DNA of 64,000 nt from an uncultured Gammaproteobacteria bacterium (GTDB lineage Bacteria > Patescibacteriota > Patescibacteriia > Veblenbacterales > UBA10138). A program made the position numbers and the translations under genes. Where the stretch lies: contig CAYGDX010000002.1 of NCBI GenBank assembly GCA_964348825.1, forward strand, positions 80,609 through 144,608, read 5' to 3'. Of this stretch, positions 52,119 through 55,517 are shown piece after piece. The notes under the pieces are model-generated. The model ran no database searches, was not told the origin of the DNA, and saw nothing but the letters and a program-made list of their open reading frames with translations. Each line of letters begins with the position of its first letter. Positions within the stretch are counted from its first letter, which is position 1.

Positions 52119-52856
52119 ATGTCTATTAAAAATAAAGTCGCCATTGTTACTGGCGCGGGACGAGGTATTGGTAAGGGTATTGCCTTGGCTATGGCCAAAG
52201 AGGGTTATAGCGTAGTGGTATCGGATATTAATCAAACTGATGCCGAAGCTGTTACCAATGAAATAAAAGAATTGAGAGTGAAAGCTATTAGTATAATTTG
52301 CGATGTATCAAAAAAATTAGAGGTTGAAGAATTATTTAAACAAACTGTGGAACAATTTGGTGGTGTTGATGTACTAGTAAACAATGCCGGCATTTATCCT
52401 TTTATTTCTTTTGCTAATATGACCGAGGCCGATTGGGATAAAGTTTTAGACGTAAATTTAAAAAGTATTTTCTTAACTTCGCAAATCGCCACTAAAATCA
52501 TGCCCGCAGGTGGCCGAATAATTAATATTTCCTCTATCGCCTCCTTAGTTGGTTTTGAAGGATTGGTTCACTACTGCGCTTCTAAAGGCGGAATTAATGG
52601 ATTAACCCGAGCTTTAGCTTTGGAGCTCGCACCTAAAAAAATTACAGTTAATGTAGTAGCACCGGGCGCGATTAATACCCCGGGCGCCAACCAAACTGAC
52701 CAAACAATTTTAAAACAAACTATTGCCATGGTTCCTTTGGCCAGAATGGGTGAACCAGAAGATATTGCCAACGCTGTGGTATTTTTAGCTGATCAAAAAT
52801 CAAGCTACATTACCGGCCAAGTACTAGTAGTGGATGGCGGCTGGACATTAAGATAA
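52119..52856 (+). CDS. SDR family oxidoreductase (FabG-like 3-oxoacyl-ACP reductase family)
   Basis: TGAGRGIGKGIA, NNAG, and YxxxK (YCASKGG) motifs. Confidence 0.75.
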   Translation: MSIKNKVAIVTGAGRGIGKGIALAMAKEGYSVVVSDINQTDAEAVTNEIKELRVKAISIICDVSKKLEVEELFKQTVEQFGGVDVLVNNAGIYPFISFANMTEADWDKVLDVNLKSIFLTSQIATKIMPAGGRIINISSIASLVGFEGLVHYCASKGGINGLTRALALELAPKKITVNVVAPGAINTPGANQTDQTILKQTIAMVPLARMGEPEDIANAVVFLADQKSSYITGQVLVVDGGWTLR

Positions 52857-52929
52857 TTAATAATCAAAAATAAAAACACCCTGAGATTATGGAAGGGTGT
52901 TTTTATTTTTGATAAATTGTTCCTTAAAA

Positions 52930-53409
52930 TTACCATCCCCAACCCATCATTCCCCCGTGACCACGACCACCCATCATCTTCATCATCCCCTTACCTTTTT
53001 TACCATTAAACTTTGTGCTATCAATTTGCTTTTGCATAATTTGCAAACGCTTATCAGCTTGGCTTTGAGTAATTACACCCTTATCTACTAAAGTTTGAAT
53101 TTGCGTTTTCATTTGTGCTAATTTAACTTCTTTCATTTTGGCTTGTAGTTGCTCGGCAGTAATACCCTTTTCTTTTATTAACTCTGGTATAGTTTTACCT
53201 TGCGCCCACGCCTCTTTAACATCAACTACGCTCATACCCAGTAAATCAGCTTGCTGTTGAAACATAGCTTGATGACTCGTAACAATTTGTTCAGGTGTAG
53301 CACCTCTAAATCCACCACCAAAACCGGCTTGAGCTATGCCACCAAATCCTAAATACAAACTAAGCGCCACTACTGGCAAAGCCACATAAATTACTGATTT
53401 ATACTTCAT
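52930..53409 (-). CDS. periplasmic LTXXQ-motif (CpxP/Spy/ZraP-like) protein with Met/Gly/His-rich C-terminus
   Basis: Signal peptide, helical Q-rich body with ITAEQ / VITQSQ (LTXXQ-like) motifs, and a GKGMMKMMGGRGHGGMMGWGW tail. Confidence 0.5.
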   Translation of the reverse strand: MKYKSVIYVALPVVALSLYLGFGGIAQAGFGGGFRGATPEQIVTSHQAMFQQQADLLGMSVVDVKEAWAQGKTIPELIKEKGITAEQLQAKMKEVKLAQMKTQIQTLVDKGVITQSQADKRLQIMQKQIDSTKFNGKKGKGMMKMMGGRGHGGMMGWGW

Positions 53410-53560
53410 ATTTTATATCATTAATATTAAAATACTGTCATTTGTACTTCATAACAGTAGTCAGACAAAGTGATGGGCAGAGCCGAAAATTATTAATTAT
53501 TAACAACTTCCGGCTCTGTATGCTTGTCATCACATTTATTAATACGTTAAAAGATAAAAT

Positions 53561-54379
53561 TTATTTCATTTCGCCAAATGGTGGCGGCGGACGCAAACCC
53601 CGACGACCTGGCCCAACACCGGGCATCATTGGCGGTGGCATCATATCAAATTCGCCATTTATAATATGCACACCCAGCGCTTTAATTTCTTCTTCATTCT
53701 TTTTACCCATCACTACCACCATATCGCCAACTTTAAATTCAGCTATTTCCGGACGATTGGTTTGCCCATCAACAATCACTTTAATCAAATCGTCAGCTGA
53801 TTCATCTTTAAGATAAAAACCGTCTTGAGTAATTTCATAAATTACACCTCGCTCAATATTAGGCCGATGCGGTCGACCAAACTGACGATAAAATCCACCG
53901 GCTGGCGCTGACAAACGATTGGTCCGTGACTCACGCCATAAATTATTATGAAACGAAGTGCGTGCCACCAAACTACCACCTACCAAAGCTAGTAAAACTA
54001 CACCAAAAAGTGAATAAACTACTGGCCGACGATAAGCAAACGAATAACGCCTGACTAAAATTTCTAAAATTATAAAACAAATTAAAGCCAGAATAATAAG
54101 CACCCAAGGCAGGGCAAATAAAAATTCAAACCAACCGCGAGCGCCAAAAGCTGGTGTAAACCAAGCCCCACTTTGCCGTAATATAAAAATAATAAAACTA
54201 ATAAAATATACGAGTGCGAGTAAAATTACAGCTACCCCCAGCGCCCCTAAAGTCGCTTCTAAAATAAATTGCCACTTCGGACGCATTAATACTCGACCAT
54301 TTTTAATGGCTGACATTACTTTTTCGGATATATTTATATTTTCTGATTGGTGATTAAGTTGGGACATAAGTTTTATCAA
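53561..54379 (-). CDS. putative anti-sigma factor (3-TM membrane protein with Met/Pro-rich C-terminal tail)
   Basis: Overlaps the 3' end of the ECF sigma gene by 26 nt. Short cytoplasmic N-terminus, TM helices, extracytoplasmic domain. Assignment is by context only. Confidence 0.4.
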   Translation of the reverse strand: MIKLMSQLNHQSENINISEKVMSAIKNGRVLMRPKWQFILEATLGALGVAVILLALVYFISFIIFILRQSGAWFTPAFGARGWFEFLFALPWVLIILALICFIILEILVRRYSFAYRRPVVYSLFGVVLLALVGGSLVARTSFHNNLWRESRTNRLSAPAGGFYRQFGRPHRPNIERGVIYEITQDGFYLKDESADDLIKVIVDGQTNRPEIAEFKVGDMVVVMGKKNEEEIKALGVHIINGEFDMMPPPMMPGVGPGRRGLRPPPPFGEMK

Positions 54380-54947
54380 TTTTATTAATTATTTTTTTTA
54401 ATATCTCCTTACCGCGCCTAAGTCGTATACCAACAGTGGAAGTCGGTAATTGTAAAATTTCAGCAATAGTTTTGTAATCTAATTCTTCATAAAAATAAAG
54501 CAACATTGGTTCACGATATTTTGGATCAAGCGCGCCAAGTGATTTATCCATCATACTTTTTAATTCTTGTTGATTTATACTATCATCAGTTTTACCACGA
54601 GCGGATAAAAATGGTAGCAGTACATCAAGCTCAAACGGCAGTATTACTTGCCGCCATTTTTGCCGCAGTTCATTAACAAATTCATTGTGCGCAATGCGAT
54701 ACAACCAAGGAGAAAAGCGACGCGTAGCATCAAAACTTTTTAAATTAGTGTAGGCCTTAATAAAAACTTCCTGTACCAAATCCTCAATATCCGCCTGACT
54801 ATTTAAAAATTTATGACCATAACGAAGTAGCTTGGCTTGATATCTTTCCATAAGCAGGCGAAATAGCTCCACTTCGCCCTGTTGCACGCGAATAGCTACA
54901 TCCTCGTCAGTTAATTGGGTATTATCCATACATCTATTATTATACAA
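54354..54947 (-). CDS. ECF-type sigma-70 family RNA polymerase sigma factor
   Basis: Region 2 (DLVQEVFIKAY...PWLYRIAHNE) and region 4 HTH (YKTIAEILQLPTSTVGIRLRRGKE). Confidence 0.8.
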   Translation of the reverse strand: MYNNRCMDNTQLTDEDVAIRVQQGEVELFRLLMERYQAKLLRYGHKFLNSQADIEDLVQEVFIKAYTNLKSFDATRRFSPWLYRIAHNEFVNELRQKWRQVILPFELDVLLPFLSARGKTDDSINQQELKSMMDKSLGALDPKYREPMLLYFYEELDYKTIAEILQLPTSTVGIRLRRGKEILKKIINKIDKTYVPT

Positions 54948-55058
54948 CTAAACTGGCTTTTTATTTCATCTAGGTTGACAAAAATACTGTTTGGAGTTAA
55001 AGTATTAAAAAATAAATCAAAATTAAAAAACAAAATTATTCACTATTCTGGAGTTAAA

Positions 55059-55517
55059 ATGAAACTCTCTATAATTGTACCTTCAAAAAAATGGCCCAAT
55101 AAAAATCGCTATGACATCTGCCAGATTATTTCCCTCTTGTTAAATAAACCAGTGATATTTTTAAGGCATGAATTAATGGAAGTGGTTAAAGATGAAAAAA
55201 AAGAACAACAAAAAAAAATTACCTTCTTGATTATGAAGGGCAATGAAACTGACAAACAAACCATAATCACTCAAAGTGGGTTAGAAGTATCGCCGGTTGA
55301 TGGACAGATGATTTTGATTACAGCCAAACACACTCATCCATCAATTCCACCTTTTCGAGAATACATTGAACAAATCAGAGGAATAGTTAATTTATTGGTT
55401 TTCCCGATTGCACAAACCAACCTGCAATGCGATGAACCATCTTATCTCGGTTGTTTTGGTGGATCAACTGAATTTGACCTTTTATCTAAGAACGGTTTTA
55501 TTGCTGAAATCGTTTGA
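55059..55517 (+). CDS. hypothetical protein
   Basis: ORF with a GGAG RBS 5 nt upstream of the internal Met (MKLSIIV). The track start at 54915 is probably an artefact. Divergent from the sigma operon. Confidence 0.4.
   Translation: MKLSIIVPSKKWPNKNRYDICQIISLLLNKPVIFLRHELMEVVKDEKKEQQKKITFLIMKGNETDKQTIITQSGLEVSPVDGQMILITAKHTHPSIPPFREYIEQIRGIVNLLVFPIAQTNLQCDEPSYLGCFGGSTEFDLLSKNGFIAEIV

What the first reader, a model, noticed from the sequence alone, without database searches (positions are those of the whole stretch)
52930..54947. ECF sigma / membrane anti-sigma / ZraP-Spy-like Met-Gly-His-rich periplasmic protein: putative envelope or metal-stress module
Seen: an ECF sigma factor (54354-54947) whose 3' end overlaps by 26 nt a 3-TM protein whose extracytoplasmic tail is Met/Pro-rich (MMPPPMMPGVGPGRRGLRPPPP). 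It is followed on the same strand by a secreted helical protein with LTXXQ-like motifs (ITAEQ, VITQSQ) and a C-terminal GKGMMKMMGGRGHGGMMGWGW tail. Established knowledge: LTXXQ proteins (CpxP, Spy, ZraP) are periplasmic stress chaperones, ZraP binds zinc via a Gly/His-rich tail, and Met-rich motifs bind Cu(I)/Ag(I). Inference: a sigma-controlled periplasmic metal- or envelope-stress response, unusual in being ECF-regulated rather than two-component regulated, and notable in a minimal genome.
Basis: partly seen in the sequence, partly recalled or inferred. Interest (0 to 1): 0.55.

Follow-up and report, generated by a model that had tools for sequence, protein, structure and literature searches.

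The report
Conserved ECF sigma envelope-stress module
A small regulatory unit found in many ultra-small (CPR/Patescibacteria) bacteria: an alternative sigma factor, a membrane protein that probably holds it in check, and an exported helical protein that the sigma factor appears to switch on. It is a real regulatory circuit, but the exported protein is not a Spy/ZraP relative as first proposed.

Summary
The three minus-strand genes are real. They are an ECF sigma factor (54929-54354), a 3-TM membrane protein (54367-53561, 14-nt overlap) and a signal-peptide protein (53409-52930).

Eighty related loci came from species-representative genomes, mostly labelled as CPR/Patescibacteria. In 68 of them the same three genes sit in the same order and orientation, and sigma and membrane genes usually overlap.

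A bipartite motif, TGAAATAA-N14-(T/C)GTAnTA, has the geometry of Bacillus sigma-W promoters. It lies upstream of sigma in 60 of 68 loci and upstream of the exported-protein gene in 66 of 68. In the 64-kb window the only two strong matches are at exactly these two positions. ECF control of the exported protein is therefore well supported.

Spy/CpxP/ZraP homology is not supported:
- there is no LTXXQ or Metal_resist Pfam hit;
- hhalign probability is 23% or less, and that match covers only the signal peptide;
- Foldseek finds no matching fold.

The protein is a distant, sub-threshold relative of DUF2680 (YckD). Its Gly/Met/His-rich tail is conserved in composition. The Met/Pro tail of the membrane protein is not conserved.

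In relatives the same promoter also drives YknXYZ/MacAB-like exporters and DedA, which points to a sigma-W-like envelope-stress regulon. A metal role is untested.

The parts
54354..54929 (-). ECF (group 4) sigma factor, 191 aa, sigma2 + sigma4 only
   Evidence: Pfam Sigma70_r2 and Sigma70_r4_2. NCBIfam sigma70-ECF superfamily 105.5 bits, above the 42.9 cut-off. The best equivalog, SigW, scores 122 bits, below its 209 cut-off. The closest solved chain is B. subtilis SigW 5WUQ, E 4.7e-25. The gene is called as 191 aa.
54937..54972 (-). P1: ECF-type autoregulatory promoter, -35 TGAAATAA (54968-54961) and -10 TGTATAA (54946-54940). It ends about 10 nt before the sigma ATG, so the mRNA is near-leaderless.
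   Evidence: PWM built without the window scores it 22.8 bits, the best hit in 64 kb on both strands. The same motif lies upstream of sigma in 60 of 68 related loci.
53561..54367 (-). Putative membrane-bound anti-sigma factor / sensor, 268 aa. It has a short cytoplasmic N-terminal helix, 3 TM helices, two juxtamembrane helices, an OB-fold-like beta domain (res 171-235) and a disordered Pro/Met tail.
   Evidence: No Pfam or NCBIfam family. 97 homologues, those with source names labelled Parcubacteria, Paceibacterota or Sungbacteria. It directly follows and usually overlaps the sigma gene in 68 of 80 loci, and in 6 of 6 loci chosen by this protein. AF2 pLDDT 76. OB-fold matches have Foldseek prob ~0.99 and E 0.01-0.1. 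Conservation peaks in TM2 and cytoplasmic loop 2.
53537..53572 (-). P2: ECF-type promoter for the exported-protein gene, -35 TGAAATAA (53568-53561, overlapping the stop codon of the membrane gene) and -10 CGTATTA (53546-53540).
   Evidence: PWM 15.2 bits, the second-best hit in the window; the next best is 11.1 bits. An equivalent site occurs in 66 of 68 related loci. It also occurs upstream of exported-protein genes that are not next to sigma.
53478..53518 (-). 19-bp hairpin in the ~120-nt leader of the exported-protein mRNA
   Evidence: Leader MFE -36.5 kcal/mol, z -5.4. No U-run follows it. No Rfam match.
52930..53409 (-). Exported 159-aa protein: signal peptide, Gly/Phe-rich N-segment, five-helix core with three G-h-[ST]-x-x-[EQ] capping boxes, and a Gly/Met/His-rich tail ending in Trp.
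   Evidence: Family alignment. 6571 cluster representatives at E<=1e-3. AF2 core pLDDT 80-90. DUF2680 match is sub-threshold at 16.3 bits, below the 25-bit cut-off. 68 of 134 relatives match DUF2680 at E<=0.01. Tail composition.
52866..52904 (-). Intrinsic terminator ending the unit; it is shared with the convergent SDR gene.
   Evidence: Stem AAAACACCC/GGGTGTTTT followed by a U-run. The 53-nt test sequence folds at -22.9 kcal/mol, z -7.8.

Best explanation
This is a self-contained ECF sigma-factor circuit that is conserved across many CPR/Patescibacteria lineages.

Proposed mechanism:
1. The 191-aa sigma factor is most similar to Bacillus sigma-W. It is made together with a 3-TM membrane protein whose gene overlaps it. 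That protein most likely holds sigma inactive at the membrane. Its cytoplasmic face is a short N-terminal helix plus the highly conserved loop RRYSFAYRRP (inferred).
2. An envelope or membrane signal is sensed through the conserved TM core and/or the external OB-fold domain, and sigma is released (inferred).
3. RNA polymerase carrying this sigma then initiates at two promoters of the form TGAAAT-N16-(T/C)GTA. P1 re-expresses the sigma/anti-sigma pair. P2 expresses a Sec-exported five-helix protein with Gly/Met/His-rich ends. The motif and its positions are shown here; use by this sigma is inferred.
4. The exported protein is an envelope effector of unknown chemistry and is distantly DUF2680-like. 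In relatives the same promoter drives YknXYZ/MacAB-type ABC exporters, DedA and other envelope proteins. The regulon therefore looks like a sigma-W-type envelope or antimicrobial stress response rather than a metal-specific one.
For: - Domain content of sigma. Closest solved relative is SigW.
- Order sigma, then membrane protein, then exported protein on one strand in 68 of 80 loci from different species.
- Sigma and membrane genes overlap by 4-17 nt in most loci. Sigma lies upstream in 6 of 6 loci chosen through the membrane protein.
- The bipartite motif was found de novo in both upstream regions.
- PWM hits of >=12 bits over 1.6 Mb (both strands): 60 at P1, 81 at P2, only 32 elsewhere. Nine of those 32 lie upstream of exported-protein genes that are not linked to sigma.
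- In the window the two best hits in 128 kb of scanned strand are P1 and P2. The strict pattern has 3 matches against 0.67 expected. All matches in related loci are on the module strand.
- The geometry equals Bacillus ECF promoters, tgaAAC and CGTA (PMC5758882).
- In loci where the exported gene is missing, P2 drives a YknX-like adaptor/ABC/MacB operon or PGA_cap plus DedA. Exporter genes directly follow the exported gene in 13-20 of 80 loci.
Against: - No binding of sigma by the membrane protein is shown. The protein lacks any recognised anti-sigma domain, and its N-terminal cytoplasmic segment is only about 30 residues.
- No transcription start sites or expression data are available.
- P2 in the window is weaker than typical (15.2 bits, CGTA instead of TGTA).
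- The function of the exported protein is not established. The window has no exporter, DedA or other regulon candidates.
- The AF2 model of the exported protein is only moderate overall (pLDDT 68.6).
Confidence: 0.78

Rival explanations
1. One reading: the exported protein is a Spy/CpxP/ZraP-type (LTXXQ) periplasmic chaperone or metal-binding protein, and the module is a metal-stress response.
For: - It is exported and helical, with [IV]TxxQ strings.
- The Gly/Met/His tail is conserved in composition. Gly is 29%, Met 12% and His 6% of tail residues, and 104 of 133 tails contain His.
- The tail resembles the E. coli ZraP tail GAGMGMGYGGCGGGGHMGMGHW (L084).
- Many relatives start the mature protein with His-Gly, as ZraP does.
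- A few related loci have Fur plus ZIP, a P-type ATPase or a cupredoxin nearby.
Against: - No LTXXQ or Metal_resist hit at E<=1, while both models detect Spy, CpxP and ZraP at E 1e-22 to 1e-23. Neither family is among the 25 most frequent hits in 20 or 134 relatives.
- hhalign probabilities are 23% (signal peptide only), 2-4% and 0.1%.
- Foldseek finds no Spy, CpxP or ZraP chain at E<=10.
- The window protein lacks the N-terminal His.
- The commonest functional neighbours are MacAB/YknXYZ-type exporters, not metal systems.
Confidence: 0.07
2. The membrane protein is not an anti-sigma factor. It is a co-transcribed sigma-dependent envelope effector or sensor, and sigma activity is set only by its own transcription or by another factor.
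For: - No known anti-sigma domain, no zinc motif, and no sequence relative in the PDB.
- The N-terminal cytoplasmic part is very short.
- The best-conserved parts are the TM core and an intracellular loop, as expected for a membrane machine.
Against: - Near-universal tight coupling, with overlap directly downstream of sigma. This is the signature arrangement of ECF/anti-sigma pairs.
- N-in topology puts a conserved helix and a conserved basic loop on the cytoplasmic side.
- An autoregulated ECF sigma without a brake would be a runaway positive loop.
Confidence: 0.15
3. The exported protein is an accessory or feedback partner. It either works with a YknXYZ/MacAB-type exporter in defence against membrane-active peptides, or binds the OB-fold domain of the membrane protein to reset the pathway, following CpxP-like logic without homology.
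For: - Its gene sits between the membrane gene and the adaptor/ABC/MacB genes in 13-20 of 80 loci, and in 2 of the 6 loci chosen through the membrane protein.
- In L087 the exporter takes its place behind P2.
- It is the most constant regulon member.
- C-termini often end in an aromatic residue: 58 of 133 end in F or W.
Against: - The window and most loci have no exporter next to it.
- No interaction data exist.
- hhalign gives no link between the sensor's beta domain and the DUF5666-like protein of the exporter operons (4%).
Confidence: 0.25

Closest known systems
Bacillus subtilis sigma-W / RsiW and its regulon (ECF30-type)
   Same: - It is the closest solved sigma (5WUQ, E 4.7e-25) and the best NCBIfam model.
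- The promoter geometry is the same: TGAAAC-N16-CGTA against TGAAAT-N16-(T/C)GTA.
- The sigma/anti-sigma operon is autoregulated.
- Relatives' regulons include YknX-type adaptor/ABC/MacB exporters (Pfam Beta-barrel_YknX). From established knowledge, yknWXYZ is sigma-W dependent in B. subtilis.
   Different: - The SigW equivalog score of 122 is below the 209 cut-off, so this is not an orthologue.
- The partner protein has 3 TM helices, only about 30 cytoplasmic N-terminal residues and no zinc-binding anti-sigma domain.
- The -10 element is mostly TGTA rather than CGTA.
- The main target is a DUF2680-like exported protein.
E. coli ZraP / Spy / CpxP (LTXXQ, Metal_resist families)
   Same: Small exported helical proteins induced by the envelope-stress pathway they belong to. 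ZraP also has Gly/Met/His-rich ends.
   Different: - No sequence, profile or fold similarity.
- Regulation is by an ECF sigma rather than a two-component system.
- Metal binding and chaperone activity are untested.
DUF2680 (PF10925; B. subtilis YckD)
   Same: It is the most frequent Pfam match in the family: 17 of 20 at E<=1 and 68 of 134 at E<=0.01, best E 1.5e-6. The match covers the last two helices, including the GVITQAQAD motif. Both are exported proteins.
   Different: The window protein scores 16.3 bits against a 25-bit cut-off. DUF2680 itself has no known function. The CPR proteins have an extra N-terminal helical half.
CnrH / CnrY / CnrX of Cupriavidus (short, class II anti-sigma with a periplasmic metal sensor)
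   Same: An ECF sigma is held by a membrane protein with a very short cytoplasmic sigma-binding segment, and a third envelope protein belongs to the module (established knowledge). CnrH is a detectable relative of the sigma (4CXF, E 1.3e-9).
   Different: The membrane protein here has three TM helices and its own OB-fold domain. The exported protein is a target gene with its own promoter, not a demonstrated sensor. No sequence similarity to CnrY or CnrX was found.

Membership tests
ECF (group 4) sigma-70 factors | Only sigma2 and sigma4 domains, about 190 aa | tested here: met
   Sigma70_r2 and Sigma70_r4_2 are the only domains above their cut-offs. TIGR02937 sigma70-ECF scores 105.5 bits against a 42.9 cut-off.
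ECF (group 4) sigma-70 factors | Co-transcribed cognate regulator directly downstream | tested here: met
   The membrane gene overlaps sigma by 14 nt in the window. The arrangement is conserved in 68 of 80 and 6 of 6 loci. Regulator activity itself was not tested.
ECF (group 4) sigma-70 factors | Autoregulatory bipartite promoter with an AAC-like -35 and a CGT-like -10 | tested here: met
   TGAAATAA-N14-TGTATAA lies at 54968-54940. The motif is upstream of sigma in 60 of 68 loci. Use by this sigma is inferred.
SigW equivalog (NF007223 / TIGR02948) | Score at or above the NCBIfam equivalog cut-off | tested here: not met
   122.2 bits against 209, and 111.3 bits against 243.1.
Class I anti-sigma factors (ASD / zf-HC2, RsiW-like) | N-terminal ~80-90-aa helical anti-sigma domain, often with HxxxCxxC | tested here: not met
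   At most ~34 residues precede TM1, and there is no Cys/His motif. No Pfam or NCBIfam hit. No PDB sequence relative.
Anti-sigma factors in general | Binds and inhibits its sigma factor | not testable with these tools
   This needs two-hybrid, co-purification or complex prediction.
CpxP/Spy/ZraP (Pfam LTXXQ PF07813, Metal_resist PF13801) | Significant match to the family HMMs | tested here: not met
   No hit at E<=1 for the window protein. Neither family is among the 25 most frequent hits in 20 or 134 relatives. The positive controls Spy, CpxP and ZraP match at E 1e-22 to 1e-23.
CpxP/Spy/ZraP (Pfam LTXXQ PF07813, Metal_resist PF13801) | Profile-level similarity to authentic members | tested here: not met
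   hhalign probabilities are 23% and 21% for ZraP (signal peptide only), 2% and 4% for Spy, and 0.1% for CpxP.
CpxP/Spy/ZraP (Pfam LTXXQ PF07813, Metal_resist PF13801) | Spy/CpxP-like helical cradle fold | tested here: not met
CpxP/Spy/ZraP (Pfam LTXXQ PF07813, Metal_resist PF13801) | Exported to the extracytoplasmic space | tested here: met
   An n-h-c signal peptide with AxA, conserved across the family, was read from the alignments. No dedicated predictor was available.
ZraP specifically | Zinc binding through Gly/His-rich termini | not testable with these tools
   Only composition can be shown. Tails are enriched in Gly, Met, Arg, Phe and His, and 104 of 133 contain His.
DUF2680 (PF10925) | Score at or above the Pfam gathering cut-off (25 bits) | tested here: not met
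   The window protein scores 16.3 bits, E 0.011. Relatives: 68 of 134 match at E<=0.01, best 1.5e-6. This indicates distant relatedness, not membership of the curated family.

The most novel reading that the evidence does not exclude
The 3-TM protein would be a new structural class of anti-sigma factor. It would hold sigma with a ~30-residue N-terminal helix plus a conserved intracellular loop, and sense through its membrane core (invariant Glu102, His140) and an external OB-fold. The DUF2680-like exported protein, with its Gly/Met/His ends, would be its extracytoplasmic feedback ligand or a metal/peptide-binding chaperone. That would make it an independently evolved functional analogue of CpxP/ZraP, forming one of the few stress circuits kept in CPR bacteria.
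Probability: 0.2. Interest if true: 0.65.

Novelty: new variant of a known kind. Interest (0 to 1): 0.45.

Why it matters
Gene regulation in CPR/Patescibacteria is almost unknown because very few of them are cultured. This analysis gives four things for lineages with very small genomes:
- a widely conserved sigma/regulator pair;
- its promoter motif, which can be used to predict regulons in any CPR genome;
- its most constant target;
- its recurrent link to YknXYZ/MacAB-type exporters.

It also defines two uncharacterised protein families that can be tested in heterologous hosts: the 3-TM/OB-fold partner and the DUF2680-like exported protein. Finally, it corrects a tempting but unsupported Spy/ZraP annotation.

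Tried and rejected
- Spy/CpxP/ZraP homology was rejected after HMM, profile-profile and fold tests with positive controls.
- A sigma-70 -10 reading of TATAAT at 54944-54939 was dropped. The consensus scan found no more sites than shuffles (8 against 8.6), and the ECF motif explains the sequence.
- A conserved Met/Pro metal-binding tail on the membrane protein was rejected. The tail is absent or unrelated in most homologues.
- The leader hairpin as an intrinsic terminator was rejected. No U-run follows it, and it lies downstream of P2.
- A known riboswitch in the leaders was not found: no Rfam hit in the window region or in 12 related loci. RNAalifold found no consensus structure for the recurrent CCTCTC...AAAGGTCG blocks.
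- Homology between the sensor's beta domain and the DUF5666-like protein of the exporter operons is not supported (hhalign 4%).
- Literature searches found no description of this module. DUF2680 and YckD are uncharacterised.
Full report
**The observation**

The three minus-strand ORFs are present as described. Public gene callers also predict them on a 196-kb ENA contig and on shorter contigs.

- **Sigma factor.** It has only Sigma70_r2 (E 1.1e-20) and Sigma70_r4_2 (E 6.5e-12). It passes the NCBIfam ECF superfamily model. It fails every equivalog cut-off; the best is SigW at 122 bits against 209. The likely start is ATG 54929, giving 191 aa, rather than TTG 54947.
- **Membrane protein.** It most likely starts at ATG 54367, giving 268 aa. 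The overlap with sigma is then 14 nt, not 26.
- **Exported protein.** It has a classical n-h-c signal peptide ending AQA and the reported C-terminal GKGMMKMMGGRGHGGMMGWGW.

**Source organism**

Homologues of the membrane protein that carry names come from Parcubacteria, Paceibacterota and Sungbacteria. Relatives of the exported protein in species-representative genomes are labelled Liptonbacteria, Uhrbacteria, Doudnabacteria, Ryanbacteria, Vogelbacteria, Komeilibacteria, Magasanikbacteria, Harrisonbacteria, Nomurabacteria and Paceibacteria. The window therefore comes from a CPR/Patescibacteria bacterium.

**The three genes form a conserved unit**

A scan of one genome per species found at least 228 relatives of the exported protein, and 80 loci were fetched.

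- In 68 of these loci an ECF sigma, a homologue of the membrane protein and the exported protein lie in that order on one strand.
- Sigma and membrane genes usually overlap, most often by 4, 17, 8 or 11 nt. A spacer with a median of 130 nt always separates the membrane gene from the exported-protein gene.
- Six further loci were chosen through the membrane protein, so they are unbiased with respect to the third gene. All six have sigma directly upstream. Three have the exported protein downstream (two confirmed by HMM). Three have a YknX-like adaptor/ABC/MacB exporter downstream.

**The promoter**

De novo dyad counting on the 150 nt upstream of sigma, and on the spacer upstream of the exported gene, gave the same bipartite motif in both sets. 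TGAAA-N17-TGTA occurred in 27 and 26 sequences, against at most 5 in shuffles. The aligned sites read TGAAATAA-N14-TGTA(G/T/A)TA.

A PWM was built without the window's own sites and used to scan the 80 related loci from the genome scan on both strands (1.6 Mb). At 12 bits or more it gave:

| Position | Hits | Loci |
|---|---|---|
| Upstream of sigma (P1) | 60 | 60 of 68 |
| Upstream of the exported gene (P2) | 81 | 66 of 68 |
| Elsewhere | 32 | – |

Nine of the 32 other hits lie directly upstream of exported-protein genes that have no sigma next to them.

In the 64-kb window the two best hits on either strand are:
- 54972-54937 (22.8 bits), ending about 10 nt before the sigma ATG;
- 53572-53537 (15.2 bits, TGAAATAA-N14-CGTATTA), overlapping the membrane gene's stop codon.

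The next best hit scores 11.1 bits. The strict pattern TGAAAT-N16-YGTA occurs 3 times in the window against 0.67 expected. In related loci it occurs only on the module's strand.

The geometry and sequence match Bacillus ECF promoters, with -35 tgaAAC and -10 CGTA for sigma-W (PMC5758882). SigW is also the closest solved relative of this sigma (5WUQ, E 4.7e-25). Taken together this is strong indirect evidence for autoregulation and for sigma-dependent expression of the exported protein.

At P1 the -10 box lies so close to the ATG that the sigma mRNA should be leaderless or nearly so. The distance from the end of the -10 block to the ATG is 2-17 nt in most loci.

**The membrane protein**

It has no Pfam or NCBIfam family and no PDB sequence relative. 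The AF2 model (pLDDT 76) shows:
- a short N-terminal helix (13-22);
- three TM helices (31-66, 88-108, 116-135);
- two juxtamembrane helices;
- a five-stranded beta domain (171-235);
- a disordered tail.

The beta domain matches OB-folds such as S1 domains, YgiW and CusF. Foldseek probability is about 0.99 but E is only 0.01-0.1.

The positive-inside rule places the N-terminus and the loop RRYSFAYRRP in the cytoplasm and the OB domain outside. Conservation is highest in that loop (0.80) and in TM2, which has an invariant Glu102. It is lowest in the tail (0.16, with 55% gaps).

The anti-sigma role is inferred from gene coupling and topology. The protein lacks the class I anti-sigma domain.

**The exported protein**

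The family is large: 6571 cluster representatives at E<=1e-3 and 208 at E<=1e-30. It includes proteins with 2-5 tandem copies of the domain. The most conserved stretch is LVDKGVITQAQADxRL.

The AF2 model has a core pLDDT of 80-90. It shows helices at 39-57, 61-69, 74-81, 85-109 and 115-131. Three of these helices begin immediately after the Ser/Thr of G-h-[ST]-x-x-[EQ] motifs. The 'LTXXQ-like' strings are therefore N-capping boxes.

*Spy/CpxP/ZraP membership fails every test.* Authentic E. coli sequences were taken from NC_000913.3.
- Pfam LTXXQ and Metal_resist detect those three proteins but not this one.
- hhalign gives 23%/21% for ZraP (signal peptide only), 2%/4% for Spy and 0.1% for CpxP.
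- Foldseek against the PDB returns nothing better than E 2.4.

The only recurrent family signal is DUF2680 (YckD). It is sub-threshold for the window protein (16.3 bits against 25). It is present in 68 of 134 relatives at E<=0.01. DUF2680 has no known function.

*What is conserved about the tail is its composition.* Gly is 29% (10.6% in the whole protein), Met 12% (5.5%), Arg 11%, Phe 8% and His 6% (2.1%). Of 133 tails, 104 contain His and 58 end in Phe or Trp. Similar Gly/Phe/Met segments follow the signal peptide and link the repeats in multi-domain relatives. This resembles the ZraP termini in composition only. Metal binding remains possible but untested.

**What the regulon suggests**

- In 13-20 of 80 loci the exported-protein gene is directly followed, on the same strand, by three genes. 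These are a HlyD/YknX-type adaptor, an ABC ATPase and a MacB_PCD/FtsX permease.
- In L087 that operon sits directly behind P2 with no exported-protein gene.
- The same promoter precedes a HlyD adaptor (L063), DedA/VTT proteins (L019; L091 behind PGA_cap), exported Cyt-b5 proteins (L019, L025) and a cupredoxin/ferric-reductase pair (L089).
- A Fur-family gene and a ZIP-like gene lie upstream of sigma in 6-7 loci. A P-type ATPase lies downstream in 5 loci.

Overall this resembles a sigma-W-type envelope or antimicrobial stress regulon, with some redox and metal-related members, rather than a dedicated metal response. None of these extra genes is in the window. There the visible regulon is the module itself, closed by a strong bidirectional terminator at 52904-52866.

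**Verdict**

- The regulatory interpretation (ECF sigma, membrane partner, sigma-dependent exported protein) is well supported by comparative evidence. I hold it at about 0.78.
- The Spy/ZraP family assignment is not supported.
- The module is a new variant of a known kind. The ECF circuit is ordinary in logic. It has an unclassified 3-TM/OB-fold partner, a DUF2680-like target, a defined promoter and an unusually broad distribution in CPR bacteria.
- The paper searches I ran found no description of it.

Noticed in passing
L008, L019, L023, L024, L034, L035, L041, L050, L059, L066, L067 leaders (between P2 and the exported-protein ATG): Recurrent sequence blocks CCTCTC(a/t)AAGG and (A)AAGGTCGA lie 21-55 nt upstream of the ATG in about 15-20 related loci. 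45% of leaders fold with z<-2. There is no Rfam family and no RNAalifold consensus. This may be a new cis-regulatory element or a protein-binding site. The window's own leader lacks the blocks.
   Followed up: partly
window 53478-53518 (-): A 19-bp hairpin with G-U pairs lies in the ~120-nt leader downstream of P2. Leader MFE is -36.5 kcal/mol, z -5.4. No U-run follows, so it is not a terminator. Its role (mRNA stabiliser or attenuator) is unknown.
   Followed up: partly
window 54929-54946 (-), and P1 sites in L004-L083: The -10 box of P1 ends only ~10 nt before the sigma ATG, and 2-17 nt from block end to ATG in most loci. The sigma/anti-sigma mRNA is therefore predicted to be leaderless or nearly so, without a Shine-Dalgarno sequence.
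   Followed up: partly
L019:6712-7074(-), L025:3908-4360(+), L089:68-678(+), L063:284-2141(+), L019:3577-4264(+), L091:2381-4518(+): The same ECF promoter (15-26 bits) precedes other genes in related genomes. These are exported Cyt-b5 domain proteins, a cupredoxin followed by a ferric-reductase-like protein, a HlyD adaptor, DedA/VTT proteins and a PGA_cap/DUF192 protein. They are candidate regulon members.
   Followed up: partly
L031, L038, L053, L057, L078, L079 (about 1-3 kb upstream of sigma): A Fur-family regulator (PF01475, above cut-off) and a His-rich ZIP-like membrane protein (sub-threshold) lie just upstream of sigma in one clade. That clade also has a shorter membrane partner.
   Followed up: no
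P0119 (552 aa), P0125 (375 aa), P0244 (405 aa), P0122 (227 aa): Some relatives carry 2-5 tandem copies of the ~90-aa helical domain, separated by Gly/Phe/Met/Arg/His-rich linkers. The core is therefore an autonomous repeatable domain, and the low-complexity ends are its natural flanks.
   Followed up: partly
L012:5027-5064, L044:5137-5174, L056:3618-3655, L067:4685-4722, L074:4923-4960: PWM hits with a 14-nt spacer (GATnTGAAATAT...GCTGTATTATTT) lie inside the 3' part of the sigma genes. They could be internal promoters for the membrane gene or a coding-sequence coincidence.
   Followed up: no
window 52866-52904: A perfect 9-bp G+C-containing stem is flanked by an A-run and a U-run. The 53-nt test sequence folds at -22.9 kcal/mol, z -7.8. 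It acts as a bidirectional terminator for the exported-protein gene and the convergent SDR gene (52119-52856). It also explains a weak sub-threshold Rfam ohsC hit.
   Followed up: yes
window 55059-55517 (+): A divergent ORF upstream of sigma is called as 113-152 aa by public gene callers. It has no Pfam or NCBIfam match and is not among the recurrent neighbours of the module.
   Followed up: no
L004, L005, L016, L018, L022, L032 and others (record titles): Many TPA assemblies that carry this CPR-type module are titled 'uncultured Gammaproteobacteria bacterium' or 'Saccharibacteria'. These labels look like placeholders or mis-assignments and should not be read as a wider taxonomic distribution.
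   Followed up: no
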